IMG/VR virus record: IMGVR_UViG_3300008255_000098 | Length of the DNA: 64,000 nt | Source: a virus | Lineage: Duplodnaviria > Caudoviricetes | Direction: 5' to 3' (one strand) | Shown here: piece after piece, positions 28,659-46,843 of the stretch | Numbering within the stretch: position 1 is the stretch's first letter | How the letters are laid out: the number at the start of each line of letters is the position of its first letter | The notes under the pieces: generated by a model | The model's input: the letters and a program-made list of their open reading frames with translations, nothing else | Database searches by the model: none | Told to the model about the DNA's origin: nothing | Program-made: the position numbers and the translations under genes

Positions 28659-30260
28659 ATGTTTATGGAAAAAAATAAAATCGAAATTTTAGTAGAAGAA
28701 GTCGTTGACGACCTATTAGCGAAAAAACTCGTAAAGAAGAAATCTAAACGTAAAAAAATCGATAAATTATCATATGAATACGTATATTATCTTAAAAGGA
28801 AAGACCCGGCTCTTTTTGAATTATTAGCGGCACAAGCGAGATTCATAATTGCTGCTGTTGAGAATGGCTACTCTCCAAAGGATAAAATTATATCACTTAA
28901 TAAATTCCTAAAAATGGATAAAAAGTTAGATCCAAGAGACAGTGCTGATACCCATGGGGTAAAGTTAGTTTTAGATTATCTTGTTAGACAGCAAAAGATT
29001 AAAGATCCTGGAGAATTTGCAGGTAAGACAAAACGTTGGTATCAGGCAGCACTCGATGCTGTTTTGAGAGCTACATATGAAAAAAAACCAATCAAGGTTT
29101 CCAAGGAACAAGTTACATATAATAAAAAAAAGTTAAATGAATCGAGTGCAGTTCATAAATCATTTTATTTGGATTTGCCAGACGATCTACTAAGGGTGTC
29201 AGACATTTTTAAAAGCCATGGATACCAACTGTTTGTTGTTGGTGGCGCTGTTAGAGATGCTCTTATAGGAAAAGCACCAAAAGACTATGACCTTGCTACA
29301 AATGCAAAACCAGATGAAATTTTACAAATGTTCAATGGGGCTCCTGGCTTCCGCACATTAGAAGTTGGAAAAGCTTTTGGAGTTATTAATGTTTATACAA
29401 AAGAAAATAATGAATATGAAATTGCCACTTTTAGACGAGATTTAAGTGCCGGTCGTCGCCCCGATGCCGTTGAATTTACGACAATTGAAAATGATGTACA
29501 GCGCAGAGACCTAAGTATAAATGCACTGTTTTATGATATTCAGAAACAAGAAATTGTAGATTTTGTTGGTGGAATTGAAGATCTTAAAAACGGAATTGTT
29601 AAATCTGTTGGAGACCCAAAAGAACGGTTTGCGGAAGACCGACTGAGAATATTACGTGCCCTTCGTTTTGCTGCTCGCATGGGAACAGAGTTAGACACAA
29701 ATACTAGAAATGCAATTCTTGAAGATAACTCTTTATCTGGAGTTTCTCCAGAGAGGATTAGAGATGAGTTTTTGAAAAGTATTAAAAGTGCCAAATCGGT
29801 TGTTTCCTTGATGAAACTTTATGATACATTTGATTTATGGCCACAGGTTTTTCCTAATTTAAGAATAAATAAAGATTATCCAGAAACAAAAAATATACCT
29901 GTGCTTTTAGCTTTATTGTTACGAGAAAACAATCCTAAAAATTTAGGTAAAAACTTAAATAAGTTAGTGTATAGTGTTGTTGAAACAAAACAAGTGGTAT
30001 TTTTAGTTATGTTTCAAGAAATATCGCTCACTAATGCTTATCAACTTAAAAAGTTATTTTCTTCTACAAGACTTACAAACTCAGACCTTCTGGAATTTGG
30101 GGAAGAAAATAAAAATATTGATATGAAATTAGTAAGTGCTTTTACAAAATATGATCTATCTGTCAGTGGACAAGATTTATTAGATTTAGGACTTAAAGGT
30201 AGAGAACTAGGCCAAGAACTAGAACGTCGTGAAAACTCTTTATTTATGGATTTGGTATGA
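28659..30260 (+). CDS. cca: Class II tRNA nucleotidyltransferase (CCA-adding / poly(A) polymerase family) with about 160-aa N-terminal extension
   Basis: VGGAVRD...KDYDLAT, EIATFR, DVQRRDLSINAL, EDRLRILRALRF, SPERIRDEF. Confidence 0.92.
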   Translation: MFMEKNKIEILVEEVVDDLLAKKLVKKKSKRKKIDKLSYEYVYYLKRKDPALFELLAAQARFIIAAVENGYSPKDKIISLNKFLKMDKKLDPRDSADTHGVKLVLDYLVRQQKIKDPGEFAGKTKRWYQAALDAVLRATYEKKPIKVSKEQVTYNKKKLNESSAVHKSFYLDLPDDLLRVSDIFKSHGYQLFVVGGAVRDALIGKAPKDYDLATNAKPDEILQMFNGAPGFRTLEVGKAFGVINVYTKENNEYEIATFRRDLSAGRRPDAVEFTTIENDVQRRDLSINALFYDIQKQEIVDFVGGIEDLKNGIVKSVGDPKERFAEDRLRILRALRFAARMGTELDTNTRNAILEDNSLSGVSPERIRDEFLKSIKSAKSVVSLMKLYDTFDLWPQVFPNLRINKDYPETKNIPVLLALLLRENNPKNLGKNLNKLVYSVVETKQVVFLVMFQEISLTNAYQLKKLFSSTRLTNSDLLEFGEENKNIDMKLVSAFTKYDLSVSGQDLLDLGLKGRELGQELERRENSLFMDLV

Positions 30261-32867: not shown

Positions 32868-33020
32868 AAAATACTTTTTAAGTTAAAAGCAGTTCACAAC
32901 GTTATATTTACAACAAAAGGAATATAAAACCCATTCATAATTTTTACATAAATAAATATAAAAACATCAAAGATAATAAATATTAAAAATCAAGATTTAG
33001 AAAACAATATTTTAAAAAAA

Positions 33021-35413: not shown

Positions 35414-35752
35414 GTGAATAAAATTAGTAAATTGCTGGCTAATCAAAAATTTTTGATCGTTATAGCAGTTCTATTAGTTGTGTTCAATATTGTCGATGCT
35501 GGAGTTTCATATTGGGCAATTTGTGTAGTAAAAATTGCACGTGAGGCTAACCCATTTATGAGAAGCTTATTGGAAACTTCCCCAATTTTATTCTTTGTAA
35601 CCAAAATTACTTTTTCTTCTTTTGCGGCAGTGTTTCTTTATCGCCTCAGAAAAAACAGTTTTGCCACGATTGGATTATTTGCGAGTTTTTTGGGATATTT
35701 CGCTTTAGTCATATTTTTGCTCACAGAAGTTGTAATTTTCGTAAACATATGA
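35414..35752 (+). CDS. Membrane protein, DUF5658-like
   Basis: NIVDAGVSY...REANPFM; three TM segments. Confidence 0.65.
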   Translation: MNKISKLLANQKFLIVIAVLLVVFNIVDAGVSYWAICVVKIAREANPFMRSLLETSPILFFVTKITFSSFAAVFLYRLRKNSFATIGLFASFLGYFALVIFLLTEVVIFVNI

Positions 35753-35818
35753 AATCATTAGAATTTTTATTAGGTTCACATGTTTGGGTATGTGTGCTAG
35801 TATAAAGTATAGGTCAAA

Positions 35819-36091
35819 ATGACAGAACTTAAACGAAAAACAGAAATGCGTAGATTTAGACTAAAGCGTATTGAAGACGAATCAGGAGTGTCAGGTACGG
35901 GATACGTATCCGAAGGAATTAAATTTTCTAATGGAAATTGTGTAATTACCTGGCTCACAGATACAAGTAGTATGGGAATATATCACAGTACTGTTGAATT
36001 ATTACATATACACGGACATTCTGGACGTACGATTATCGAGTGGATAGATAATGAAAATGCTACTGGTTCTGGGACAGTATTAGATAATTAA
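35819..36091 (+). CDS. Hypothetical phage protein
   Basis: RRFRLKRIEDESGVSGTG...HGHSGRT. Confidence 0.65.
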   Translation: MTELKRKTEMRRFRLKRIEDESGVSGTGYVSEGIKFSNGNCVITWLTDTSSMGIYHSTVELLHIHGHSGRTIIEWIDNENATGSGTVLDN

Positions 36092-36123
36092 AAAAATAGA
36101 TTACTCGATTAGTAAAAAAGAAG

Positions 36124-36152
36124 TTTACAACATACTTAGGATCTGCTATACT
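36124..36152 (+). promoter_or_regulatory. Sigma70-like promoter at the head of the tRNA array
   Basis: TTTACA-N17-TATACT with extended -10 TG, about 30 nt upstream of tRNA-Glu. Confidence 0.65.
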
Positions 36153-36184
36153 GATTTAACAAACTACTTTTTATAGTTATTTTT

Positions 36185-36259
36185 GGCCCTATAGTTTAAT
36201 GGTAGAACAGCCGCCTCTCAAGTGGCTAACGGAGGGTTCAATTCCCCCTAGGGTCACCA
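36185..36259 (+). tRNA. tRNA-Glu(CTC)
   Basis: Cloverleaf; anticodon loop CT-CTC-AA; CCA encoded. Confidence 0.9.
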
Positions 36260-36274
36260 AAATAGTAAAATTTG

Positions 36275-36418
36275 TCACAACTCTTTTAGAGGTTGTGAGT
36301 CAATGTTCTCTGAAAACAGAATACGTCTTTATTAGTTTGTCTGTACTAACACCAGTAAACAGACAACTGTAAAGGCGAGTTAGCGTTTGTAAATCATTCA
36401 GTTTACCACGCTCTCGCT
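36275..36418 (+). ncRNA. Candidate structured RNA (four hairpins) between tRNA-Glu and tRNA-Phe
   Basis: TCACAAC/GTTGTGA, TTGTCTGT/ACAGACAA, GCGAG..AGCGT/ACGCT.CTCGC stems. Confidence 0.45.
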
Positions 36419-36425
36419 AATACTT

Positions 36426-36501
36426 GCCAACTAAGCTAATCTGGTGAAAGCACTCGGTTGAAGCCCGAGGTAGCCCGGATCAAAACCGGGAGTTGGTACC
36501 A
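36426..36501 (+). tRNA. tRNA-Phe(GAA)
   Basis: Cloverleaf; TT-GAA-GC loop; T-loop ATCAAAA; CCA. Confidence 0.9.
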
Positions 36502-36595
36502 AATCCAAAATAATAGAATAATAGAATAATAGAATTACCATTCTATAGACCGTCAGGCAGGAATTTTTTTCCTTCTATGAAGGACATAAAATAAT

Positions 36596-36723
36596 AATAC
36601 CGCCAGTTCTTGGCGGTTACATGTGTGGAGCTATAAATAAGACTTCTTCTTTACAAAAGAAGAAGCACAAAGTAGTGAAACCCGAAGCCTAACCCACCGC
36701 CCTAGCGTGGGTGAGTAGTTCAC
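36596..36723 (+). mobile_element. IS605-type TnpB omegaRNA-like scaffold / right end (copy 2, different subfamily)
   Basis: TACCGCCA..TGGCGGTTACATGTGTGGAG..TAAGAC..hairpin..GAAACCCGAAGCC..ACCCAC/GTGGGT..GTAGTTCAC. Confidence 0.65.
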
Positions 36724-36795
36724 AGGTTATTGGTGTAATGCGTAGCACAATGGATTCCAAACCCATTAGTTAGAGTTCGAGTCTCTAGTAGCCTG
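36724..36795 (+). tRNA. tRNA-Trp(CCA)
   Basis: Cloverleaf; TT-CCA-AA loop; followed by CTA rather than CCA. Confidence 0.88.
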
Positions 36796-36865
36796 CTAAT
36801 AATGATAAAAGGTGGGAAACATCTGTCTGGCCAATAATATTGATTGGCTATAGGCCATATATTTT

Positions 36866-36940
36866 AGGATCATAGCATAATCTGGCTAGTGCTCTCCCCT
36901 GTCACGGGAGAATGTGTGGATTCGAATTCCACTGGTCCTG
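36866..36940 (+). tRNA. tRNA-Asp(GTC)
   Basis: CT-GTC-AC loop; followed by CTA. Confidence 0.9.
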
Positions 36941-37069
36941 CTAAATTATCAGCATGATGGAGTAACAGGCAAATTGGCCTAAAATAACATGAAAATTGAG
37001 TTCGAGACGCTTATAATGTGTGGTTTTAGCTCTCGATGATGATAATTCCCCCATTTTATGATGGGGCAT

Positions 37070-37146
37070 GGGCTTTTGGTGTAATGGACAAGCACGTCGG
37101 GCTCTTAACCCGTAAAGTCAGAGTTCGAGTCTCTGGAGGCCCACCA
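37070..37146 (+). tRNA. tRNA-Lys(CTT)
   Basis: CT-CTT-AA loop; CCA. Confidence 0.9.
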
Positions 37147-37174
37147 AATATTTTTCAAGGTTACAAGGAGTCAA

Positions 37175-37447
37175 ATGAAATATAAAGTAGAGTTTGAGGT
37201 CTCAACAGATATAAAATATTCTTCTATAGAAGAATGTATAGAGGACTTTTGGGATCTATTCATTGCAAATGGTCGTCTTACTGTTTTAGAAAATAAAATT
37301 AGATTATTAATTGATATTAAAAAAAATCTAGTTCCTCCAGTAATGCAAAAAGCTGCCAATGAAGCATACAAAAATCAAGAAAATACTTATAACAGTGTAA
37401 AAAACTTTTCTGTTTCTCCTTTAGAAGAAGAAGAAGATAATAAATAA
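37175..37447 (+). CDS. Hypothetical protein
   Basis: ORF track; AGGAG RBS. Confidence 0.6.
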   Translation: MKYKVEFEVSTDIKYSSIEECIEDFWDLFIANGRLTVLENKIRLLIDIKKNLVPPVMQKAANEAYKNQENTYNSVKNFSVSPLEEEEDNK

Positions 37448-37454
37448 ACATTTT

Positions 37455-37526
37455 GCGTCCGTAGTCTAATGGAAGGGCATCGGCCTTCTAAGCCGGGGTG
37501 TGTAGGTTCGAGTCCTACCGGACGTG
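37455..37526 (+). tRNA. tRNA-Arg(TCT)
   Basis: CT-TCT-AA loop; followed by CTA. Confidence 0.9.
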
Positions 37527-37532
37527 CTAATA

Positions 37533-37654
37533 TCATTTAGTGGTAGTTTAGTGGTAGAACACCCGCAGATAACGGCCTGATGCAAGTTTGATTCTTGCAC
37601 ATGTTGGCACTCTGGGGCTTGGAAACACATGTTTGATTCATGCTCACTAAATGA
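37533..37654 (+). ncRNA. tRNA-like RNA with a D-arm and two T-arm-like hairpins
   Basis: 10-bp closing stem TCATTTAGTG/CACTAAATGA; D-arm TAGTTTAGTGGTAGAAC; two GTTTGATTC T-loops. Confidence 0.55.
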
Positions 37655-37660
37655 ATATTT

Positions 37661-37737
37661 CCTGCTGGACGGTTCGGTGTAACCTGCCCTCTCTGATAAA
37701 GAGGGCGCACCAAGTTCAACTCTTGGCAGCAGGACCA
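37661..37737 (+). tRNA. tRNA-Ile(GAT), atypical D-arm
   Basis: CCTGCTG/CAGCAGG acceptor; CT-GAT-AA loop; CCA. Confidence 0.85.
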
Positions 37738-37766
37738 AATAAATTAATAATAGAAAATAGGATAAA

Positions 37767-38354
37767 ATGAAAGATAAAATAGAAGAAATCTGGTTTACAT
37801 CAGATACTCATTTTGGTCATACTAATATATTGAAATATTGTGATAGGCCATTCGCAAACATTGAGGAACACGATGAATATCTAATTTCTCAATGGAATAA
37901 AGCAGTAAAGCCTAACGATAATGTTTATCATTTAGGAGATTTTGCATTTGGAAACGACACGTTTATCAAAAACATCATACGTCGCCTAAATGGAAAAATA
38001 CACTTTATTACTGGTAATCATGATAAAATTATTAACTCTAACAAAACAATACAAGATTCTTTCGCAAGTTATCAACAATATTGCGAAATAAAAGTTTCTA
38101 CAAAAAACAGTAAACAGAAACAATCAATTGTAATGTTTCATTATCCGATAGAATCTTGGAACAAGTGTTATCACGGTGCTTGGCATTTACACGGGCATTG
38201 CCATGGTACTTTTCCTAGTACAAATTTCCAAGCGAGAGTTGATGTAGGAGTGGATATTTGGGAATATACACCAGTCTCATATGAACAAATTAAAAATCAT
38301 ATGAGCGGAAAAGAGTTTAAACCCATAGACCACCATGGTAAAAGAACGAAGTAA
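37767..38354 (+). CDS. Calcineurin-like metallophosphoesterase
   Basis: TSDTHFGH, HLGDFAFG, ITGNHD, MFHYP, HLHGHCH. Confidence 0.9.
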   Translation: MKDKIEEIWFTSDTHFGHTNILKYCDRPFANIEEHDEYLISQWNKAVKPNDNVYHLGDFAFGNDTFIKNIIRRLNGKIHFITGNHDKIINSNKTIQDSFASYQQYCEIKVSTKNSKQKQSIVMFHYPIESWNKCYHGAWHLHGHCHGTFPSTNFQARVDVGVDIWEYTPVSYEQIKNHMSGKEFKPIDHHGKRTK

Positions 38355-38379
38355 CCACTATGCAGCATAGACTGCGCAT

Positions 38380-38454
38380 GGGTCTCTAGCACAACGGCAG
38401 TGCAATGGCCTTTTAAGCCACAGGTTGAGGGTTCGAATCCCTCGGGACCCACCA
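38380..38454 (+). tRNA. tRNA-Lys(TTT)
   Basis: CT-TTT-AA loop; CCA. Confidence 0.9.
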
Positions 38455-38510
38455 AACACTGAAAAGATAAATAACACTGTGTTATATATTTACTGTGTAT
38501 AGGTCATTAA

Positions 38511-39125
38511 ATGAATAATTTCAAAAACATTGCTACTGCAAAGGCAACTAACGATAACAAAAAATTATATGAGGCGAGTCTTGGTAGAATTTGGCAACAT
38601 GTTGTTGAAGCAGATGAAAAATCAATTGCTATACTTACTTCATGGCGAGCAGCAAACAACAAGAAACAAAACCAAAAACAGTTTCAAGATTTAAAAGCTG
38701 CGGTGCGAGGTCTCGGTTTGGGGTTCGTCCAAATAAGAGGGCACTGGAGAGAGTGCCAAAACGACTCTGTTCCGTACGAAAATTGTCCAGAAGAAGAATT
38801 AGTAGATGCAATTGAACCATCACTGTTTATTATTGGAATAAAACAAGAACAAGCAGAGATGTTATCAAATCAATATAAACAAGATGCTTATATTTTTGCT
38901 GGACCTGAATCTAAAGGTAAAGTCGTTTTATTATTCAAAGGCGGCGAGTCAATGGAAATTGGTTCTTTCAAACCCCAAACTTTGGGACAAGCCTATTCGG
39001 AACTAATAAAATCTAAATTAGCTAGTCCAAAATATTTTAAATTTGAAGGAATAGAGTATACTGCACAAACTTGGGTAGAAACTCTAATAGAACAAGAAGT
39101 TAGAAAAACACTAGCAAATATTTAA
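38511..39125 (+). CDS. Hypothetical phage protein
   Basis: ORF track; ATATTTA motif upstream. Confidence 0.65.
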   Translation: MNNFKNIATAKATNDNKKLYEASLGRIWQHVVEADEKSIAILTSWRAANNKKQNQKQFQDLKAAVRGLGLGFVQIRGHWRECQNDSVPYENCPEEELVDAIEPSLFIIGIKQEQAEMLSNQYKQDAYIFAGPESKGKVVLLFKGGESMEIGSFKPQTLGQAYSELIKSKLASPKYFKFEGIEYTAQTWVETLIEQEVRKTLANI

Positions 39126-39134
39126 TAATTCATA

Positions 39135-39202
39135 ATTAGGGTAGCTTAAATAAAGCCTATTGTCGTATAATAGAAGTTCTAGGTCAAATCCTAGTCCTAA
39201 TT
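39135..39202 (+). ncRNA. Degenerate tRNA-like element (truncated D-loop; CGT in the anticodon position)
   Basis: ATTAGGG/TCCTAAT acceptor, CTATT/AATAG anticodon stem, CTAGG/CCTAG T-stem; no D-loop GG, no CCA. Confidence 0.5.
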
Positions 39203-39205
39203 CAT

Positions 39206-39281
39206 TCAGGGTTAGCCATCTGGTGAAAGCACTCGCCTGTTAAGCGAGTCAAGGTGAGTTCGATCCTCACACCCTGAGCCA
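39206..39281 (+). tRNA. tRNA-Asn(GTT)
   Basis: CT-GTT-AA loop; CCA. Confidence 0.92.
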
Positions 39282-39345
39282 GTATACCAATGTGTCTCTT
39301 ATAAAAGCAACAGTGCCAGTGTCACAGGTAAAATATAAATAATAT

Positions 39346-39419
39346 TCGGGGATCGTTCAATGGCAGGACCGGAGACTCTGAATCTCCTTATCTAGGTTCG
39401 AATCCTAGCCCCCGGACCA
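39346..39419 (+). tRNA. tRNA-Gln(CTG)
   Basis: CT-CTG-AA loop; CCA. Confidence 0.9.
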
Positions 39420-39468
39420 GTATTTGTTTAGTACAGCGGAAGATAAATATTTTCACTTAATGTAATAT

Positions 39469-39539
39469 TCGGGATTCGTCTAAAGGCAAGACTATAGGCT
39501 TTGAACCTATGAATGTTAGTTCGATTCTAGCATCCCGAT
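39469..39539 (+). tRNA. tRNA-Gln(TTG)
   Basis: CT-TTG-AA loop; followed by CTA. Confidence 0.9.
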
Positions 39540-39542
39540 CTA

Positions 39543-39729
39543 AAATAGCTTTGCTTTGCTTGGAATCATTTATGTAGTCCGGTCATCCGGTATGTAAACG
39601 GTTAGAAGGTTTGAGTTTGTGTTCAAATAATATTCCTTTGTTTGAAACATTCACGTGTTACGCAACTCTGTTGCGACATAAATGTCTAGAAGATTTAAAA
39701 TCTGGATTACTCTCAAAATATGTTATTTT
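39543..39729 (+). ncRNA. Candidate structured spacer RNA
   Basis: AAATAGC/GTTATTT closing stem; CCGG-TCAT-CCGG, CGCAAC/GTTGCG and AGAT/ATCT hairpins. Confidence 0.4.
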
Positions 39730-39731
39730 TA

Positions 39732-39810
39732 CGGCGTGTAGCCCAGTTTGGTTTAGGGCACCTGCTTTGGGAGCAGGAGGTCGTGGGTTCAAATCCCTCC
39801 ACGCCGACCA
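39732..39810 (+). tRNA. tRNA-Pro(TGG)
   Basis: TT-TGG-GA loop; CCA. Confidence 0.92.
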
Positions 39811-39875
39811 AAATTAAATCCGGTGGTGAGTATTGTGGTCCTAACAAGGATGGTTTTAGGATAATTTTTAATTTT

Positions 39876-39950
39876 GCGTCTGTAGTTCAAAGGACAGAGC
39901 ACGGGTTTCCTAAACCCGGAATGAAGGTTCGAGTCCTTCCAGATGCGCCA
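39876..39950 (+). tRNA. tRNA-Arg(CCT)
   Basis: TT-CCT-AA loop; CCA. Confidence 0.92.
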
Positions 39951-39964
39951 AATTTTTTTATCAT

Positions 39965-40042
39965 CAGTCAGAGTGCCATGAGGTAGGCAACCGCATTCGG
40001 ATTGCGGAAGACGTGTGAGTTCGAATCTCGCCTGACTGACCA
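39965..40042 (+). tRNA. tRNA-Pro(CGG), atypical positions 8-9
   Basis: CAGTCAG/CTGACTG acceptor; TT-CGG-AT loop; CCA. Confidence 0.82.
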
Positions 40043-40050
40043 AAATCTTT

Positions 40051-40213
40051 TCACCTATTATACTATTGATAATAAGCTGCGTCGCAGATTGAATCCTGCG
40101 ATTTTACCATTTATTTTAGGTGGGTCTGTGACGACCGAAGAAGAAAAAGAAGAAGAAGCCCGACCCATCAATTTTTTTGCTCTCTTCTTCTTTATGGGCA
40201 GTCTACTAGGTGA
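40051..40213 (+). ncRNA. Candidate pseudoknotted RNA
   Basis: TCACCTA/TAGGTGA closing stem, TCGCAG/CTGCGA, TGGGTC/GACCCA; loop AAAGAAGAAG complementary to downstream CTTCTTCTTT. Confidence 0.5.
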
Positions 40214-40220
40214 TAAATGG

Positions 40221-40292
40221 GGGGGTTTAATTTAATCGGGAAAATACATGCTTCGCAAGTATGAGTCATGGGATCGTAACCCATAACCTCCA
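40221..40292 (+). tRNA. tRNA-Ala(CGC)
   Basis: G3-U70; TT-CGC-AA loop; T-loop ATCGTAA; followed by CTA. Confidence 0.85.
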
Positions 40293-40379
40293 CTATCCGC
40301 AGTTTAGAAGTGCCAGCTAGGTTAGTGGTTCGTCAAGATGGCTTCCAGATAGCAGGAAGAGTAAAAGAATAAACAATAT

Positions 40380-40465
40380 GTCGATGTGGGGGAATGGCAG
40401 ACCCGCTAGTCTCAGAAGCTAGTTCCCGAAAGGGAGTGCAGGTTCAAGTCCTGTCATCGACACCA
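40380..40465 (+). tRNA. tRNA-Leu(CAG)
   Basis: CT-CAG-AA loop; long variable arm; CCA. Confidence 0.92.
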
Positions 40466-40537
40466 AATTTCGCAAGCTAAAATCCAGGCAATGACTTTGA
40501 ATTATTTGAGAGTTGATGGTTCTCATGCGAAATTTAT

Positions 40538-40622
40538 ACCGACGTGGGGGAATGGCAGACCCGCTAGTCTAAGAAGCTAGTATAGCGAAAGCTGTGTGCG
40601 AGTTCAAGTCTCGCCGTCGGTA
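40538..40622 (+). tRNA. tRNA-Leu(AAG)
   Basis: CT-AAG-AA loop; long variable arm; followed by CAA. Confidence 0.88.
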
Positions 40623-40665
40623 CAAATGTTTTTTCACACAATTTTCAGGTATAAGATAAATTCAT

Positions 40666-40742
40666 GGTGTCCATAGTGTAAACGGTGAACATGGTCGGTT
40701 GTGACCCGGCAGTTAGCGGTTCAAATCCGCTTGGACACACCA
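40666..40742 (+). tRNA. tRNA-His(GTG)
   Basis: TT-GTG-AC loop; G-1 encoded; discriminator A; CCA. Confidence 0.9.
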
Positions 40743-40798
40743 AGGTTTCATAAATATAATGGCGTCACAGTCACTAAATTGGTTTATTTTCGAAACAT

Positions 40799-40874
40799 GC
40801 CCAAGTACGCTAAAGGCAGTGCGGCTTTTCTCAAAAAAAAGTGGTTGTGAGTTCGACTCTCACCTTGGGTACCA
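40799..40874 (+). tRNA. tRNA-Leu(CAA) with short variable loop
   Basis: CTTTT/AAAAG stem, CT-CAA-AA loop, 5-nt variable region; CCA. Confidence 0.82.
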
Positions 40875-40895
40875 AAACAGGAATAAATAAAATCT

Positions 40896-41195
40896 ATGGA
40901 AACAACACCTAAAGCTGGAAAATTATACAAAGTGGTTGGTCCAGCAGAGTTTGTTCCAAATTTAGAAAGTTACGTCAGTTCATCATTCAAGTATCAATTA
41001 TATCGAATAACAGAAGAAATTCCTATAGGGGAAATTTTATTGTTTGTCGAAATACAACAAAACGTTGTTGAAAACAAATATTTACCTACTCTATTTGGTG
41101 ATAAAATAGAAATACTTCTTTACAAGTTCTTGTATGGGGAAAAAATCATTTATTTGGAGTGTTATAATGACGAAATGTTGCGTCAAGTGGAATAA
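40896..41195 (+). CDS. Hypothetical protein (small beta-barrel paralog family)
   Basis: IPIGEILLFV...YKFLYGEKIIYL. Confidence 0.6.
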   Translation: METTPKAGKLYKVVGPAEFVPNLESYVSSSFKYQLYRITEEIPIGEILLFVEIQQNVVENKYLPTLFGDKIEILLYKFLYGEKIIYLECYNDEMLRQVE

Positions 41196-41207
41196 CATTC
41201 AGCCAAA

Positions 41208-41301
41208 TAAACAAAAACGGAATAAGGTGTTGTCACTAGGTGAGTCTAAGACCTTCGAAACTTATCCACGTCAGCTATACTGTCGTGGGAGGGTAATTCA
41301 C
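41208..41301 (+). mobile_element. Truncated omegaRNA-like scaffold / IS right end (copy 3)
   Basis: AAACAAAAACGGAATAAGGTGTTGTCACTAGGTGAGTCTAAGACCTTCGAAAC...GGGTAATTCAC; homologous to copies 1 and 4. Confidence 0.65.
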
Positions 41302-41347
41302 CATAGCCACATGAATAAGTATTATAGATTGCCTAATATTAGGCTGA

Positions 41348-42256
41348 ATGGAAAAAAATATGCGTGCATTAGTTTTAGGTGGAGGAGGCGCTAAGGGCGC
41401 ATTTCAGGCTGGAGTTTTTAAATACCTAGCCGAACAGGGAGAAAAGTTTGAAATCATCTCTGGTACGTCTGTAGGCGCTTTGAACGGGTCTTTCCTGGCT
41501 CAGTATGTTTTAGGTGACGAAGCCAAAGCATCACAGGAGTTAATATCTCTTTGGGAAAAAATCGAAGATAAAAAAATCTATAAGAAATGGTATTTTGGTA
41601 TTCTTGGCAAAGCTCCATTTCTTATGCCAAGATGGCTAGGTGGAAAGAAAAGCATGTTTACCACAAAACCATTAGAAAACAATATCAGTGGACTTTTGGA
41701 TTTGGAAAGAGTTAGAAGTTCAGGACATAAACTCCGAATTAATACAATAAACATAGATACTGGTGAATTAGAAGTGTTTGATGAAGATTTTGACCTGCTC
41801 AAAAAAGCAGTTTTAGCAAGTTCTTCTTTTCCTCCTGCTTTTGCTCCGGTAGAAATCAATGGAATGAGATATTTGGACGCAGGCGCACGAGAAATAGTGC
41901 CAATAGAAGCTGCAATAAAAGCTGGTGCTACAGATATTGTTGTAATTGCTTGTAGCCCATACAATGTAATAGGAAATTTAGCTAAGAAGCCATCAGGGCT
42001 TGATATAGCATTTCGGACAATAGACGCAAGTGGGGTTGAAATAGAAAAATGGGATTTGAAAATTGTTGAATTATATAATGCTTTAATAAAATCTGATAGT
42101 CCAATGGCGGGAGATAAAAAGATAATAAAGGTTACAGTTATTCGTCCAAAACAAGCTTTGTTAAGTGACACTTTAGATTTTAACCCTGAGAGGATCAGAA
42201 CAAATATTGAAAGAGGATATTTAGCTGCACAAGGGTTAGACAAAGTTTTAGAGTGA
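41348..42256 (+). CDS. Patatin-like phospholipase
   Basis: LGGGGAKGAFQAG, GTSVG (GxSxG), YLDAG. Confidence 0.92.
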   Translation: MEKNMRALVLGGGGAKGAFQAGVFKYLAEQGEKFEIISGTSVGALNGSFLAQYVLGDEAKASQELISLWEKIEDKKIYKKWYFGILGKAPFLMPRWLGGKKSMFTTKPLENNISGLLDLERVRSSGHKLRINTINIDTGELEVFDEDFDLLKKAVLASSSFPPAFAPVEINGMRYLDAGAREIVPIEAAIKAGATDIVVIACSPYNVIGNLAKKPSGLDIAFRTIDASGVEIEKWDLKIVELYNALIKSDSPMAGDKKIIKVTVIRPKQALLSDTLDFNPERIRTNIERGYLAAQGLDKVLE

Positions 42257-42307
42257 AATATGTCAGCGAGCCTTGAGCACATAGGGCAAGTCCTACCGCT
42301 GACCCTC

Positions 42308-42382
42308 GCCTCATAAGCATAAATGGTGATGCACCGGCTTTGTAAACCGGAAAATTCGGTTCGATTCCGAAATGAGGCTCCA
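42308..42382 (+). tRNA. tRNA-Thr(TGT)
   Basis: TT-TGT-AA loop; CCA. Confidence 0.9.
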
Positions 42383-42408
42383 AAAAATTCTACTATATTG
42401 TAGAAAAC

Positions 42409-42479
42409 GCCCTGTTAGTATAATGGTATTACCCTCGCCCCGTAAACGAGGAACGTCGGATCGTTACCGACACAGGGCT
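42409..42479 (+). tRNA. tRNA-Thr(CGT)
   Basis: CC-CGT-AA loop (C33); T-loop ATCGTTA; followed by CTA. Confidence 0.85.
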
Positions 42480-42494
42480 CTAAGTTAAAAAAAT

Positions 42495-42569
42495 GCATCC
42501 GTGGTCTAATGGAAGGGCACTGGTCTACGAAACCAGTTCATGTAGGTTCGAATCCTGCCGGATGCGCCA
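42495..42569 (+). tRNA. tRNA-Arg(ACG)
   Basis: CT-ACG-AA loop; CCA. Confidence 0.92.
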
Positions 42570-42737
42570 AACGTATACAGAAAAATATACTAAATTAGTT
42601 TACAAGGCTGGGCGTTAAAAACCCATCCATTTACTTTTAATCCACAGGACGGAGAATTGTTCACCAGGGGTTAAGAACCTTTGATAGAAAGAGCGGAAGT
42701 GCATAAAGTTTTTGTAGAAACAATGAAATAATTTAAC

Positions 42738-42822
42738 AAATATTTTGGTAGCTCTATAATCTTGAGACATATAGGGCTGGTAGGCGAGGTCTCGGCCGGG
42801 TTCGAATCCCGCCAAAATATTT
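42738..42822 (+). ncRNA. tRNA-like RNA with a canonical T-arm and a pseudoknot in place of the D and anticodon arms
   Basis: 11-bp AAATATTTTGG/CCAAAATATTT stem; CGGGTTCGAATCCCG; GCTCTAT/ATAGGGC hairpin whose loop GAGAC pairs with GTCTC. Confidence 0.55.
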
Positions 42823-42896
42823 GCCTTTGTAGTATAATGGTATTACACTTGCCTGGTATGTAAGAAACGAGAGATCGATACTCTCCAAAGGCTCCA
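42823..42896 (+). tRNA. tRNA-Thr(GGT)
   Basis: CT-GGT-AT loop; T-loop ATCGATA; CCA. Confidence 0.88.
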
Positions 42897-43020
42897 AAAA
42901 ATAGTTTTGCGGTATTAATTGAATGGCTTAGTCCTGCTTGAGGTGTTTCTTACGACATTATCTGGTACTCCACTCTTGTTCTTCCAGCCTCTTCAAATAA
43001 GTATGTAACTCATATTTCAT

Positions 43021-43094
43021 GGGCAAATAACTCAGTGGCAGAGTGCCTCTTTTACATGGAGGAAACGGCAGTTCAATCCTGTCTTTGCCTACCA
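43021..43094 (+). tRNA. tRNA-Val(TAC)
   Basis: TT-TAC-AT loop; CCA. Confidence 0.9.
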
Positions 43095-43144
43095 ATAAAA
43101 CCACAGCAGGGAGATTGATTCGATACCAATATTCCGCACTGTAT

Positions 43145-43221
43145 GCACGATGGGCTGGCTGGGATTAGGCACCTTCTCGACATGGAGGATTAGACAGGTT
43201 CAATTCCTGTGTCGTGTACCA
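43145..43221 (+). tRNA. tRNA-Val(GAC)
   Basis: TC-GAC-AT loop (C33); atypical D-arm; CCA. Confidence 0.82.
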
Positions 43222-43349
43222 AATTTTGTAGGCTATGAGCATTATTACAATCTGTGAAGGAAACAAGTATTATATACATCAACAACGTATTTTTAGCGGT
43301 CTTTTTTTTGGCATGTGACACAAAGCTAAAATTTAGCATTTAGAGGTTT

Positions 43350-43592
43350 ATGAAAAAATTAAATTTAGGTATTCTTTATAAAAATGGGAAGGTAGTAGAT
43401 CATCGTTCAGCTTTACAGGTTTTTTTAAATCCCTTTTTACGAACAGCGGGATTTGAAATTTGCTCTATCTTTTTAGATGGGGAATTTGACAAATACGAAG
43501 TTAGAAAACTAGAAAAGGCGCAAGAATTTAATTTTGATTTATATTCTTGGAATGATTTTGATGAGGTAGAAAAGAAAAGACGAATAATATAA
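43350..43592 (+). CDS. Hypothetical protein
   Basis: ORF track; GAGG RBS. Confidence 0.55.
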   Translation: MKKLNLGILYKNGKVVDHRSALQVFLNPFLRTAGFEICSIFLDGEFDKYEVRKLEKAQEFNFDLYSWNDFDEVEKKRRII

Positions 43593-43596
43593 ATTT

Positions 43597-43667
43597 GCGG
43601 GTATGGTATAATGATATTATGTTTGGTTTCCACCCAAAGGATCTGAGTTTGATTCTCAGTACCCGCT
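43597..43667 (+). tRNA. tRNA-Gly(TCC)
   Basis: TT-TCC-AC loop; followed by CTA. Confidence 0.88.
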
Positions 43668-43689
43668 CTAAGTTAGTCAAATATTATTT

Positions 43690-43765
43690 CGGGCGTTAGT
43701 GAAAAGGATAATCACGCAGAACTCCGAATTCTGTATTACAAGTTCGATTCTTGTACGCTCGGCCA
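43690..43765 (+). tRNA. tRNA-Arg(CCG)
   Basis: CT-CCG-AA loop; CCA. Confidence 0.9.
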
Positions 43766-43880
43766 AATAATCTATGAAGCCTTATAGATAGTGGTTACAC
43801 ATGAGACTAGACTGGCGGTGGTTACACGCATTGTATCGTGTTTATGTGTAACCGTGTGGTCGCTCCACGATAGATTATTT
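43766..43880 (+). ncRNA. Candidate structured spacer RNA with a duplicated GTGGTTACAC motif
   Basis: 11-bp AAATAATCTAT/ATAGATTATTT closing stem; GGTTACAC (two copies) complementary to GTGTAACC. Confidence 0.5.
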
Positions 43881-43883
43881 TTT

Positions 43884-43954
43884 GCCTACGTTCTTAGGTT
43901 GAGAGCAAACGTTTCATAAGCGTTTTGGTGAAGGTTCGAATCTTTCCGTAGGCA
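43884..43954 (+). tRNA. tRNA(CAT), elongator Met or Ile2; reduced D-arm
   Basis: GCCTACG/CGTAGGC acceptor; TT-CAT-AA loop; no initiator GGG/CCC pairs; followed by CTA. Confidence 0.8.
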
Positions 43955-43977
43955 CTAATATTTCAATAATGAAATAT

Positions 43978-44048
43978 GCGGGATTGGTATAAAGGTATTA
44001 CACGACATTGCCAATGTTGAGACATCGGATCGTTTCCGATATCCCGCT
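43978..44048 (+). tRNA. tRNA-Gly(GCC)
   Basis: TT-GCC-AA loop; T-loop ATCGTTT; followed by CAA. Confidence 0.88.
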
Positions 44049-44081
44049 CAAAAATAACATTCTAAAATAGGAAATAATATC

Positions 44082-44534
44082 ATGTATATTGTAGAAAAAA
44101 ATTCCAAAAAAAAGGTAGATGCGGAAGAATGGTTTGAATTCGAATCATATGGAAAAATTATATATGACCCGCCTCGGCCAGGAATGAAAAAAAATAAAGA
44201 TTGGTGGGTTATCTTTTCTGTAGATCGTGAAATAACAAGATATTTTCGTTGGCAAATTTTGTGGAATTGGGGAATTAAATTATACCAACCGTCTTGGGAC
44301 GCACATATTTCTATTATTAGAGGCGAACGTCCTGCAAATGATAAGATGCATCTTTGGAAGAAATTTCATGGGCAAAAGTTCAAATTCAAGTATTCAAATA
44401 AAGTATTTCAGGCTGACAATAAGCCAGAATTCTGGTACATACACGCACAGAGTCCGATTATCAAGGAAATACGTGAAGATTTTGGATTTCAATCAGATTG
44501 GACATCTCATATAACAGTTGGAAAAACATGTTAA
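44082..44534 (+). CDS. 2H phosphoesterase family protein
   Basis: Two HxS/T motifs: AHISII and SHITVG. Confidence 0.75.
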   Translation: MYIVEKNSKKKVDAEEWFEFESYGKIIYDPPRPGMKKNKDWWVIFSVDREITRYFRWQILWNWGIKLYQPSWDAHISIIRGERPANDKMHLWKKFHGQKFKFKYSNKVFQADNKPEFWYIHAQSPIIKEIREDFGFQSDWTSHITVGKTC

Positions 44535-44563
44535 CAAATGTAACAAACTGGTTTACAACTTTT

Positions 44564-44598
44564 ATTAACTACCCACCCGCAACGGGTGGGTAGTTAAT
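44564..44598. repeat. Perfect 16-bp inverted repeat resembling IS200/IS605 end hairpins
   Basis: ATTAACTACCCACCCG-CAA-CGGGTGGGTAGTTAAT; GGTGGGTAGTT is shared with the end of copy 1. Confidence 0.75.
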
Positions 44599-44600
44599 CT

Positions 44601-44730
44601 AACGGCATTGCACATTTAAATTTTGATGGGGGTTAGTTCTAATCCTTCAATTGATTATATAGAATGCGTATATATTGGTGCAAGCTCATCTAAAGCCGCA
44701 CAGGCTAGAAAATTAGTGGCAAATGCTGTT
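44601..44730 (+). ncRNA. Candidate structured RNA upstream of tRNA-Ala(GGC)
   Basis: AACGGCATT/AATGCTGTT closing stem; TATATA/TATATA, AGCC/GGCT and GGGTTA/TAATCC hairpins. Confidence 0.4.
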
Positions 44731-44769
44731 TATCCAAAAGGTTATACACCTGGCAATTGAAACTTTTTT

Positions 44770-44841
44770 GGGGGTATGGTGTCAATGGGAACACGCTGAC
44801 TTGGCTAGCCAGAGTTTTGAGTTCGAGTCTCAATATCTCCA
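44770..44841 (+). tRNA. tRNA-Ala(GGC)
   Basis: G3-U70; TT-GGC-TA loop; followed by CTA. Confidence 0.85.
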
Positions 44842-44851
44842 CTAAATAAAT

Positions 44852-44945
44852 GGAAGAGAAACCAGTCAGGGTACTGGGCACGCCTGGAAAGCGTTGCGGA
44901 CGGGCTAAGAACCTGTTTGGGCTTCGATTGCTCTCGCTTCCGCCA
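44852..44945 (+). tRNA. tRNA-Ser(GGA)
   Basis: CT-GGA-AA loop; long variable arm; CCA. Confidence 0.88.
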
Positions 44946-45070
44946 AAATAAAGATGTATTCTTTTTAAATAGTAAAAAACGTGAGAAGTAAATTCAAGAT
45001 GCAACAAAAAAGTATTGTGAATATGTTGATTTGATTATCAAACAAACTATAAGCTATATTTAAACAAACT

Positions 45071-45161
45071 GGAAGGTAACCTATGACGGTGATTAGGCTT
45101 GCCTGCTAAGCAAAGTGGACTCGTGAAACAGTCTGGGGTTCGACTCCTCTGCCTTCCGCCA
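45071..45161 (+). tRNA. tRNA-Ser(GCT)
   Basis: CT-GCT-AA loop; long variable arm; CCA. Confidence 0.88.
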
Positions 45162-45244
45162 AGTTTAAACAAAATGGTTTAGATATTTTAGTTCAATCTA
45201 AAATTTTGTCGTGTTATAAAATATTGTTACGATAGGAAAAATAT

Positions 45245-46843
45245 ATGTGCGGAATTTTTGCCTATAAAGGAAGTTTGATTCCCTTTGAGGAACTAGAAAA
45301 GCAATTTATGAAATTGCAACATAGAGGACCAGACAACATGCAAATAGATGTTGACCCTCAAAAAAAAGTATTTCTAGGTTTTCATAGATTATCAATAATG
45401 GATTTAACTTCCAAAGGAAACCAACCATTTGTTGATGGTACAATACGTTTGTTGTGTAACGGAGAAATCTATAACCACGAGAGTCTAAAACAGGAAATAA
45501 ATTACAAATGTCACTCTGCAAGTGACTGTGAAATTTTACTACCACTTATTGAAAAATTTGGGTTGCTTGAAACATCTAAAAAATTAGATGCAGAGTTTGC
45601 ACTAATATGGTATGACCATAAAACACAAAAAATGATGGCTGCACGTGACCCAATTGGCATTCGTCCTTTATTTTGGGGGAAGACAACTTCTGGAGAAATA
45701 GCCTTTGCGTCCGAGGTCAAAGCATTAGTGGACATTTGTGAGTTTGTTGAAGCATTTCCACCGGGATTTATTTGGGATGGCAATGAATTAATTGAATTTA
45801 GTGATGCAGGCTGTCAGCCTAAAAAAACTCTTTCCGGGTCAGAGCCCATGAAAGAAAAAGAAGTCCTGTACGGAATATCCTATAAGCTTACAGAGGGTGT
45901 TAGAAAGAGGATGGGGGCTGACGCTCCGATTGGATTTTTGTTGAGCGGAGGTCTTGACAGTAGTCTAATTTGTGCTTTGGCAGCTAAAATCTCTGACAAG
46001 CCTATAAAGACGTTTTCTGTGGGGTCAAATATTGACGCAATTGATAATAAATATGCAGAATTAGTTGCAAAACATATTGGCGCTGAACATACTACAGTAT
46101 TGTTTACACAACAAGATGCAACAAGTAGACTAGATGAGCTAATTCGAAAATTAGAGACGTGGGATATTACGACTATCCGTGCTTCTGTTGGAATGGATTT
46201 TGTATGCGAGTGGATACATAAAAATACAAATATTAAAGTGTTGATGACAGGAGAAGTTAGTGATGAATTATTTGGATATAAATATACAGATTATGCCCCG
46301 AATGCAACTGAGTTTCAAAATGAAGCAATTAAAAGAATGAGAGAATTATACATTTATGACGTACTTCGAGCGGACAGGTGTATTTCTGGGCATTCGTTAG
46401 AAAGCAGAGTTCCTTTTGGAGATTTAAATTTTGTAAGCCATGTGATGAATATTCCAGCTGAAATGAAAATGAACACACACGGGCAAGGAAAATATTTATT
46501 ACGCAAAGCCTTTTCCAATATTAACCTTTTGCCGGAAGAAATCCTTTATAGAGAAAAGGCAGCGTTTTCAGATGCAGTTGGACACTCAATTGTTGATGGA
46601 ATTAAGTTTTATGCTGAAACCAACATAAGTGATAAAGAGTTATTAGATGCAAAACAAAAGTACAGTTATGGAACTCCTCTGACAAAGGAAGCTTTATTGT
46701 ATCGTAATATTTTTGAAAGACACTATCCTGGCAGAAGTGAGTTAATTAAAGATTTTTGGTTACCAAATAAAAATTGGGAAAATTGTAATGTTACTGATCC
46801 AAGTGCTCGTGTGTTGCCTAATTACGGAGACAGCGGCAAATAA
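45245..46843 (+). CDS. asnB: Asparagine synthetase B (glutamine-hydrolysing)
   Basis: MCGI N-terminal nucleophile, HRGPD, GFHRLSI, NGEIYNH, RDPIGIRPL, LSGGLDSS, TGEVSDELFG, ESRVPF. Confidence 0.96.
   Translation: MCGIFAYKGSLIPFEELEKQFMKLQHRGPDNMQIDVDPQKKVFLGFHRLSIMDLTSKGNQPFVDGTIRLLCNGEIYNHESLKQEINYKCHSASDCEILLPLIEKFGLLETSKKLDAEFALIWYDHKTQKMMAARDPIGIRPLFWGKTTSGEIAFASEVKALVDICEFVEAFPPGFIWDGNELIEFSDAGCQPKKTLSGSEPMKEKEVLYGISYKLTEGVRKRMGADAPIGFLLSGGLDSSLICALAAKISDKPIKTFSVGSNIDAIDNKYAELVAKHIGAEHTTVLFTQQDATSRLDELIRKLETWDITTIRASVGMDFVCEWIHKNTNIKVLMTGEVSDELFGYKYTDYAPNATEFQNEAIKRMRELYIYDVLRADRCISGHSLESRVPFGDLNFVSHVMNIPAEMKMNTHGQGKYLLRKAFSNINLLPEEILYREKAAFSDAVGHSIVDGIKFYAETNISDKELLDAKQKYSYGTPLTKEALLYRNIFERHYPGRSELIKDFWLPNKNWENCNVTDPSARVLPNYGDSGK

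What the first reader, a model, noticed from the sequence alone, without database searches (positions are those of the whole stretch)
36260..44760. Nearly every tRNA spacer folds into a self-contained RNA with paired ends
Seen: closing stems that start just after one tRNA and/or end just before the next at 36944-37047 (AATTATC/GATAATT), 37533-37654, 39543-39729, 39811-39875 (AAATTAAA/TTTAATTT), 40051-40213, 40466-40535 (AATTTCGCA/TGCGAAATT), 42738-42822, 43766-43880 and 44601-44730, most with GC-containing internal hairpins. Known: T4 releases two stable RNAs of unknown function (species 1 and 2) from its tRNA cluster. Inference: the tRNA array also serves as a processing scaffold that releases about ten distinct small RNAs through RNase P and 3' trimming.
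Basis: partly seen in the sequence, partly recalled or inferred. Interest (0 to 1): 0.6.

Follow-up and report, generated by a model that had tools for sequence, protein, structure and literature searches.

The report
Mixed structured RNAs between phage tRNAs
In this uncultured jumbo phage, about four in ten gaps between tRNA genes fold back on themselves, but they are a mixed bag: only one is a demonstrably conserved new folded RNA, while most of the ten small RNAs proposed remain unproven.

Summary

- **Closing stems.** Eight of the nine stems exist. The ninth (39811-39875) is A/U only and does not fold.
- **How common.** "Nearly every spacer" overstates it. Six of 19 ORF-free spacers of at least 40 nt have strongly pairing ends, against 3.8% for mismatched end pairs (p about 5e-5). 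Two of five short spacers are whole-spacer hairpins.
- **Fold stability.** It is ordinary: mean z is -1.5, against -1.25 for this phage's other intergenic regions.
- **What the spacers are:**
  - 36260-36425 is a four-hairpin RNA conserved in the closest retrievable relative, with nine compensatory pairs.
  - 37533-37654 and 42738-42822 are tRNA mimics.
  - Three odd tRNAs were missed at default settings.
  - 36599-36723 is a TnpB omega-RNA relic.
  - About five stem-closed elements are unique, with no homologue and no shared motif.
- **Other phages.** In two other jumbo phages, stem-closed array spacers are YrlA-type Y RNAs beside a Ro60 gene. This shows such arrays can release small RNAs. 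The window's spacers fail that family's test, and no Ro60 gene was found.
- **Earlier scan work.** The scan found Y-RNA-like array spacers before, on other DNA.
- **Limits.** No close relatives could be fetched, so covariation for the nine elements is untested.

The parts
36124..36152 (+). Sigma-70-like promoter (TTTACA, 17 nt, TATACT, with TG) in front of the first tRNA. It is the likely start of the array transcript.
   Evidence: This is a consensus match only.
36260..36425 (+). Conserved four-hairpin RNA between the first and second tRNA. It is the best-supported structured RNA in the region.
   Evidence: z is -5.8. A homologue sits at the same place in the closest relative, L254:3959-4143 (Smith-Waterman Z 20). 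Nine of 33 pairs changed on both sides, three on one side, and none is broken. Indels of 12, 2, 2, 1, 5 and 2 nt rule out a conserved reading frame. No Rfam match.
36599..36723 (+). Degenerate copy of a dispersed, gene-less TnpB omega-RNA or right-end relic. It ends in TTCAC directly at position 1 of tRNA-Trp.
   Evidence: Alignment with the copies near 33006, 41190 and 58600. The whole spacer has z -4.3.
36944..37047 (+). Stem-closed element (8-bp closing stem). It is followed by a separate hairpin at 37049-37067 before tRNA-Lys.
   Evidence: z -1.35 on the + strand. Closing-stem probability in context 0.48. No homologue.
37533..37654 (+). tRNA-derived mimic with an 11-bp terminal stem, a D-arm 91% identical to that of tRNA-Glu, and two T-arm-like hairpins.
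   Evidence: Z 5.9 against tRNA-Glu. Rfam tRNA scores 22.3 bits, below the 29-bit cut-off. z is -1.95.
39135..39203 (+). Degenerate tRNA-Thr(CGT)-like gene, hidden in what looks like spacer 2 nt before tRNA-Asn (39206).
   Evidence: ARAGORN finds it only at the relaxed threshold.
39543..39729 (+). Stem-closed element with a 7-bp, A/U-rich closing stem around four hairpins.
   Evidence: z is -2.3. Closing-stem probability in context 0.16. No homologue.
39811..39875 (+). Claimed element that is not supported. Its A/U-only stem is absent from the fold.
   Evidence: z is +1.1 and the fold is open.
40051..40213 (+). Stem-closed element holding a long purine/pyrimidine helix (GAAGAAGAAG with CTTCTTCTT).
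   Evidence: z is -2.5. Closing-stem probability in context 0.06.
40466..40535 (+). Stem-closed element between the two duplicated tRNA-Leu genes. Its 9-bp closing stem is the most robust of all.
   Evidence: End duplex -9.9 kcal/mol. Closing-stem probability in context 0.96. Overall z only -1.3.
40745..40797 (+). Short closed spacer (GGTTTC with GAAAC) that overlaps a promoter-like site at 40732-40760.
   Evidence: probability 0.63.
42383..42408 (+). Short spacer that is one 6-bp hairpin.
42738..42822 (+). tRNA mimic with a 12-bp terminal stem, two hairpins and a canonical T-arm, abutting tRNA-Thr(GGT). Its 5' half overlaps a promoter-like site (TTAACA, 16 nt, TATAAT).
   Evidence: z is -2.5. 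The T-arm is identical over 16 nt to that of T4 rnaC. Promoter-like site. ARAGORN and Rfam make no tRNA call.
43766..43880 (+). Stem-closed element with a 10-bp closing stem, a 13-bp internal hairpin and a small 3' hairpin.
   Evidence: z is -2.65. End duplex -7.9 kcal/mol. Closing-stem probability in context 0.36. No homologue.
43956..43977 (+). Short spacer that is one 8-bp hairpin.
44601..44730 (+). Claimed element with a weak fold. It overlaps a possible 44-codon ORF (44626-44760). A perfect hairpin lies just upstream at about 44566-44598, after the 150-aa gene.
   Evidence: z is -0.8. ORF translation, with no homologue found. Sequence read.
44852..45161 (+). Two non-canonical tRNA-Ser genes (44852-44945 GGA, 45071-45161 GCT) that end the array.
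   Evidence: ARAGORN at the relaxed threshold. Rfam tRNA-Sec model 34.6 bits. The second is conserved in the relative at L254:11574-11664, 72% identity.

Best explanation
The ORF-free gaps of this roughly 33-tRNA array are a heterogeneous set, not one class of about ten small-RNA genes.

**How it would work (inferred).** The array is probably transcribed as one or a few + strand precursors, from promoter-like sites at 36124, 40732 and 42733. RNase P cuts at the 5' end of each tRNA. An endonuclease or a trimming exonuclease frees each tRNA 3' end. Every gap is therefore released as a by-product.

**Self-closed gaps.** About 40% of the gaps pair their two ends. That would shield both termini from exonucleases and keep the A/U-rich spacer from interfering with folding of the neighbouring tRNAs.

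**Evidence of selection as an RNA in its own right.** Only a few gaps carry it:
- the conserved four-hairpin RNA at 36260-36425;
- more weakly, the two tRNA mimics at 37533-37654 and 42738-42822.

**The rest.**
- One gap is a transposon (omega-RNA) relic.
- Three 'gaps' hold odd tRNAs.
- About five closed elements are unique to this phage. They are best read as young, fast-evolving structured linkers that may or may not accumulate: 36944-37047, 39543-39729, 40051-40213, 40466-40535 and 43766-43880.

**Shown versus inferred.** Shown: the structures, the end-pairing excess, conservation of one element, and the identity of the relic and the mimics. Inferred: co-transcription, the processing route and stability.
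For: - End-pairing excess over composition-matched non-cognate ends.
- Whole-spacer hairpins in short gaps.
- Conservation of 36260-36425 with nine compensatory pairs and no broken pair.
- tRNA-derived sequence only in 37528-37657 and 42570-42822.
- Omega-RNA relic family.
- Hidden tRNAs.
- Butt-joined layout on one strand.
- The same layout in two other jumbo phages, where 5 of 8 closed spacers belong to a covariation-supported Y RNA family and 3 of 8 do not.
- T4 rnaC and rnaD abut tRNA-Arg, and rnaC carries a T-arm. They are detected RNAs of unknown function in infected cells (PMC9697503).
Against: - Fold z-scores are no better than for other intergenic DNA of this phage.
- Closing stems have low predicted probability in context for several elements.
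- The closest relative's array shows only a weak end-pairing excess (p 0.08).
- No expression data exist.
- The relative's array is rearranged and cut by the contig end, so absence of homologues is weak evidence.
- Promoter-like sites inside spacers could mean that some 5' strands are never transcribed.
Confidence: 0.55

Rival explanations
1. The array is a processing scaffold, and about ten of its spacers are distinct, functional, stable small-RNA genes.
For: - Layout and end-pairing excess.
- Precedent in other jumbo phages, which carry up to 17 Y RNA copies in their arrays, and in T4 rnaC and rnaD.
- One conserved RNA in the region.
Against: - None of the nine listed elements is conserved in the nearest relative.
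- They share no motif.
- None matches Rfam or the Y RNA model.
- Their z-scores are ordinary.
- One does not fold.
Confidence: 0.12
2. The closing stems are purely structural. Spacers are selected only to fold on themselves, which insulates the neighbouring tRNAs and presents clean RNase P and 3'-end sites. After excision they are degraded and have no function as RNAs.
For: - Closure is found without any sequence conservation or shared motif.
- Even 22-26-nt spacers are simple hairpins.
- The closed elements are unique and turn over fast between the window and G039.
Against: - Only about 40% of spacers are closed, so closure is not required.
- It does not explain the conserved, elaborate 36260-36425 RNA.
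- It does not explain the T-arm mimics.
Confidence: 0.22
3. Chance and composition. A-rich trailers after CCA and T-rich leaders before tRNAs pair by default, and the rest is ordinary folding of A/T-rich DNA picked out by eye.
For: - Trailers start with AAA(T) and leaders end in ATTTT.
- The A/U-only stems at 39811 and 39543 are of this kind.
- z-scores equal the intergenic background.
- The excess over random internal segment pairs is modest.
Against: - The non-cognate-end control keeps exactly that composition and is exceeded (p about 5e-5).
- Four end duplexes reach -7.5 kcal/mol or lower, where 0.6% is expected.
- The same excess appears independently in other phage arrays.
Confidence: 0.08
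4. The closed spacers are small mobile insertions whose terminal inverted repeats look like closing stems.
For: The genome is littered with gene-less IS605-type relics, two of them inside the array.
Against: - Each closed element is single-copy in the window.
- I saw no flanking target duplications when reading the sequence.
- From general knowledge, IS200/IS605 elements have no terminal inverted repeats.
- The relic family does not coincide with the closed elements.
Confidence: 0.03

Closest known systems
Phage T4 stable RNAs rnaC (species 1) and rnaD (species 2)
   Same: They are non-tRNA RNAs butt-joined to a tRNA inside the tRNA cluster on the same strand, 1-6 nt from their neighbours. rnaC is strongly structured (z -4.5) and places a canonical T-arm just before the 3' strand of its terminal pairing, as does 42738-42822. 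Their function is still unknown (PMC9697503).
   Different: There is no sequence homology beyond the 16-nt T-arm. T4 has two such RNAs at the 3' end of a small cluster, whereas here the elements are scattered through about 33 tRNAs. T4's RNAs have been detected in cells; these have not.
YrlA-type Y RNAs (Rfam RF02553; Chen et al. 2014, PMC4201824), including the copies I found in the tRNA arrays of two other jumbo phages (IMG/VR records behind L015 and L019)
   Same: Both have a terminal stem made from the 5' and 3' ends and a variable interior that often includes a T-arm. Both are butted against tRNAs, so tRNA processing would release them.
   Different: The window's elements lack the conserved handle (GNCGAA N0-1 G / AAUGC ... 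UUACAU ... CUUG). They score at most 15.8 bits with the family model, where true members score 28-69 bits. No Ro60/TROVE gene is present in the window or in the 91-kb relative.
Spacer-derived regulatory RNA of bacterial tRNA operons (3'ETS-leuZ sponge of E. coli; from my own memory of Lalaouna et al. 2015, not checked here)
   Same: A transcribed spacer of a polycistronic tRNA precursor that is released by processing and acts as an RNA.
   Different: It acts by base pairing to small RNAs. No target or seed was sought or found here.
Gene-less IS200/IS605 (TnpB) right-end or omega-RNA relics
   Same: 36599-36723 and 41190-41332 align with the dispersed family in this genome and share its ...GGGTRGTTCAC end.
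   Different: This explains only one structured spacer, and none of the nine closing stems.

Membership tests
YrlA / Y RNA (RF02553) | Terminal helix carrying the conserved Ro60-binding handle (GNCGAA N0-1 G on the 5' strand). | tested here: not met
   Model R2 was built from 13 phage members and finds 17 members in L162, L164, L169 and L170 at 28-69 bits. In the window its best score is 15.8 bits (E about 0.9). With filters off over 35500-46000, the best is 14.9 bits on the minus strand. A motif scan found no array element.
YrlA / Y RNA (RF02553) | Match to the Rfam covariance model. | tested here: not met
   No YrlA match at E up to 5 over 35800-45300.
YrlA / Y RNA (RF02553) | Ro60/Rsr (TROVE) gene encoded nearby. 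| tested here: not met
   tblastn with the two phage Rsr proteins against the window gives nothing better than E 4.8. No TROVE domain in the 91-kb relative G039. The rest of this phage's genome is not held, so absence from the whole genome is untested.
YrlA / Y RNA (RF02553) | tRNA-like domain with a T-arm. | tested here: inconclusive
   Present in 37533-37654 and 42738-42822 and absent from the other closed elements.
T4 rnaC / rnaD | Sequence homology to rnaC or rnaD. | tested here: not met
   Local alignment against shuffles shows only the 16-nt T-arm for rnaC and nothing for rnaD. rnaC homologues are confined to T4's near relatives.
T4 rnaC / rnaD | Non-tRNA RNA butt-joined to tRNAs within the tRNA transcription unit. 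| tested here: met
   Coordinates.
T4 rnaC / rnaD | Accumulates as a stable RNA in infected cells. | not testable with these tools
   No host, culture or transcriptome is available.
tRNA (RF00005) | Cloverleaf scoring above the family cut-off. | tested here: not met
   37544-37598 scores 22.3 bits against a 29-bit cut-off. 42738-42822 has no tRNA match. ARAGORN calls neither, even at relaxed settings.
IS200/IS605 omega-RNA relic (for 36599-36723 only) | Alignment to the dispersed right-end family, ending in TTCAC. | tested here: met
   Four-copy alignment with 60% mean column identity and a shared 3' block. I did not test for TnpB itself.

The most novel reading that the evidence does not exclude
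In this phage lineage the tRNA array is a general launch pad for a changing set of Ro60-independent, stem-closed small RNAs. These would include the conserved four-hairpin RNA and sealed tRNA mimics. They would accumulate after tRNA processing and act, for example, as decoys for host tRNA-targeting defences or for tRNA-binding enzymes.
Probability: 0.15. Interest if true: 0.7.

Novelty: new variant of a known kind. Interest (0 to 1): 0.42.

Why it matters
Phage tRNA clusters are usually annotated as tRNAs plus junk.

T4's two cluster-embedded RNAs are still described as of unknown function (PMC9697503). Y RNAs in phage arrays show that the precursor can deliver other RNAs.

This window adds a conserved, uncatalogued four-hairpin RNA and two sealed tRNA mimics in a phage that has no Ro60 gene in the 64 kb examined. 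It also gives a simple statistic, cognate against non-cognate end pairing, that picks out such passengers.

It tempers the stronger claim as well. Most self-closed spacers here have no evidence of function beyond their shape.

Tried and rejected
**Searches for relatives that failed or fell short**
- Near and distant BLAST of the array against GenBank phages gave only generic tRNA hits.
- IMG/VR searches with three single proteins found nothing.
- A patatin alignment found only loci at 48% identity or less, with no tRNAs nearby.
The near-identical and 66-77% relatives (P0001, P0002, P0122, P0124) could therefore not be fetched.
- BLAST of the array against 38 viral records matched only tRNAs and genes.
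- An alignment of the small protein encoded just upstream of the array found three more distant contigs, none with an array beside it.
- A T-arm plus stem pattern of the mimic had no exact match in IMG/VR.
- The core motif of the conserved RNA found only the same relative again.
- Model R3 found that RNA in only 2 of 71 records, and both copies have the same sequence.

**Readings rejected**
- Pseudo-tRNA origin for all closed spacers. Only two show tRNA similarity.
- Y RNA membership.
- Mobile inverted repeats. No second copies exist.
- A coding explanation for the conserved RNA. Its indels break any frame.

**Correction to my own working**
- I first took G003 and G015 for relatives. Their terminases are not detectably similar to the window's, so I use them only as analogues.


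Full report
**Context.** The window comes from an uncultured jumbo phage. It carries:
- a T4-type large terminase and a DnaE-type polymerase;
- a tmRNA at 58719-59081;
- a CCA-adding-enzyme family gene at 28659-30260.

The tRNA array spans 36185-45161, all on the + strand. ARAGORN finds 30 tRNAs at default settings. Three more appear only at a relaxed threshold: a degenerate Thr(CGT) at 39135-39203 and two long-arm Ser genes at 44852-44945 and 45071-45161. Seven protein genes are interleaved, among them a metallophosphoesterase and a patatin.

**Checking the observation.**
- Eight of the nine closing stems are present and close the minimum-free-energy fold of the claimed interval. The ninth (39811-39875) is A/U only, is not used in the fold, and has z +1.1.
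- z-scores of the nine are modest, from -0.8 to -2.7, and similar on the opposite strand.
- The 18 ORF-free spacers of at least 40 nt that were scored have mean z about -1.5. This phage's other intergenic regions have -1.25 and coding controls -0.53. Folding better than shuffles holds for a subset but is not special here.

The distinctive signal is pairing between a spacer's own two ends.
- Non-cognate end pairs keep the A-rich trailer and T-rich leader composition. Against them the excess is clear: mean -3.8 against -1.6 kcal/mol, with none of 5000 permutations as low.
- Six of 19 spacers reach -5.3 or lower, where 3.8% is expected (p 5e-5).
- Against random internal segment pairs (16.7%) the excess is modest.
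- Two of five short spacers are single whole-spacer hairpins.
- With tRNA flanks included, closing-stem probabilities range from 0.06 to 0.96.
- About 8-10 of 24 gaps are self-closed, so "nearly every" is an overstatement.

**What the individual gaps are.**
1. **36260-36425** has the strongest fold (z -5.8). It is conserved, as described under the closest relative below.
2. **36599-36723** is a degenerate member of the genome's gene-less TnpB omega-RNA or right-end family. Its TTCAC end abuts tRNA-Trp.
3. **37533-37654** is tRNA-derived. Its D-arm is 91% identical to that of tRNA-Glu (Z 5.9), and it has two T-arm-like hairpins. It scores 22.3 bits on the tRNA model, below the cut-off.
4. **42738-42822** has a 12-bp terminal stem, two hairpins and a canonical T-arm. 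Its 5' half coincides with an 11-of-12 sigma-70-like site.
5. **36944-37047, 39543-39729, 40051-40213, 40466-40535 and 43766-43880** are unique closed elements.
   - They show no tRNA similarity.
   - They have no second copy in the window.
   - They have no Rfam match.
   - I found no shared motif when reading them.
6. **44601-44730** folds weakly (z -0.8) and overlaps a possible 44-codon ORF.

**Closest relative.** No close relative could be reached in GenBank phages. A terminase alignment recovered one IMG/VR contig with 75% terminase identity, G039, plus an identical fragment, G084.
- Its array of 28 tRNAs is syntenic at the start but is otherwise reordered, and it runs into the contig end.
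- Exactly one window spacer has a homologue there: 36260-36425 matches L254:3959-4143, again after the first tRNA (Smith-Waterman Z 20; all other spacers Z below 5).
- Of 33 predicted pairs, 9 changed on both sides, 3 on one side, and none is broken.
- Helices H1 and H3 were already the single-sequence fold of the window copy, so this is not circular.
- The fourth hairpin has a different sequence in the two phages but folds in the same place.
- Six indels exclude a conserved reading frame.
- The RNA was not found in 69 other viral records.

**Other jumbo phages.** Two contigs, G003 and G015, share patatin and CCA-enzyme homologues with the window but have no detectable terminase similarity.
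- Their array spacers show the same end-pairing excess: -5.2 against -2.6 kcal/mol, with none of 5000 permutations as low.
- Five of the eight closed spacers there belong to one family: a terminal stem, then AAUGC, a second stem, UUACAU, a variable core often with a T-arm, then CUUG or UUUUG and the stem's 3' strand.
- This is the YrlA handle, the GNCGAA N0-1 G motif of Chen et al. 2014 (PMC4201824).
- One copy aligns end to end with Rfam YrlA at 24.6 bits, below the cut-off.
- My models find 17 copies.
- Covariation is strong: 95.8% of cells are paired, 14 pairs changed on both sides, none of 500 shuffles is as high, and slid controls are far lower.
- Both phages encode a TROVE/Ro60 protein 5-7 kb upstream of the array.

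Stem-closed array spacers can therefore be real small-RNA genes. The same model finds nothing in the window (best 15.8 bits) or in G039. No Ro60 gene is present in the window or in G039.

**Mechanism.**
- Shown: the one-strand, butt-joined layout (closed elements begin 0-8 nt after a tRNA and mostly end 0-7 nt before the next), and the structures.
- Inferred from established tRNA processing: RNase P cleavage at each tRNA 5' end and endonucleolytic or exonucleolytic 3' maturation release every gap. Paired termini would slow exonucleases.
- My reading is that the conserved four-hairpin RNA, and perhaps the two mimics, are selected as RNAs. The unique closed elements are more likely fast-evolving structured linkers.

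**Comparison with known systems.** The closest analogues are T4 rnaC and rnaD and phage YrlA.
- T4 rnaC and rnaD sit 1-6 nt from their neighbours, and rnaC has a T-arm. They are detected RNAs of unknown function (PMC9697503). Sequence homology to them fails apart from a 16-nt T-arm.
- The YrlA handle and partner tests also fail.
- The region therefore works like these systems in layout but is not a member of either family. I rate it a new variant of a known kind.

**Limits.**
- There is no expression data.
- Only one distinct relative sequence is available.
- The rest of this genome is not held.
- E-values from my own models are rough.

Noticed in passing
L162, L164, L169, L170 (IMG/VR records behind L015 and L019); Rsr at G003:13335-14958 and G015:99800-101402: Two other jumbo phages carry about 17 YrlA-type Y RNA copies butted against tRNAs in their arrays. 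Each also has a 534-541-aa TROVE/Ro60 gene 5-7 kb upstream of the array. The handle is supported by strong covariation.
   Followed up: yes
window 44082-44534: A 150-aa gene inside the array has two H-x-S/T motifs and a weak match to a 2H phosphoesterase domain (E 0.004, below the cut-off). A 34%-identical homologue lies in the tRNA array of G015 (L170:9811-10101). It is possibly an RNA-end repair or processing enzyme.
   Followed up: partly
window 28659-30260: A 533-aa CCA-adding enzyme / poly(A) polymerase family gene lies about 6 kb upstream of the array. This is relevant because many of the array's tRNAs do not encode CCA.
   Followed up: partly
window 36259, 39540, 42896; L254 7392, 11967, 12109: The motif (A/G)AATAG recurs within about 10 nt after tRNA 3' ends in both the window (3 of 33) and its relative (3 of 28). 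Background is about 2-3%. This is a weak enrichment and a possible processing signal.
   Followed up: partly
L254 11968-12037 and 12110-12182: Two spacers of the relative's array share the start T(C/A)GAATAG and a GGTCACCTAAGG.TGTTTC block. This is a small repeated spacer family that is absent from the window.
   Followed up: no
window 45071-45161 and L254 11574-11664: A non-canonical tRNA-Ser(GCT) with an apparent 8-bp acceptor stem and a long variable arm is conserved between the two phages at 72% identity. It scores better on the tRNA-Sec model than on the tRNA model.
   Followed up: partly
window 44566-44598: A perfect 13-bp G+C-rich hairpin without a T-run lies directly after the 150-aa gene. 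It is a possible RNA-stability or termination element.
   Followed up: no
proteins P0123, P0177, P0212 (terminase relatives): Some terminase homologues of this lineage are about 989 aa long and carry Hint/intein-type Pfam domains. The window's terminase is intein-free.
   Followed up: no
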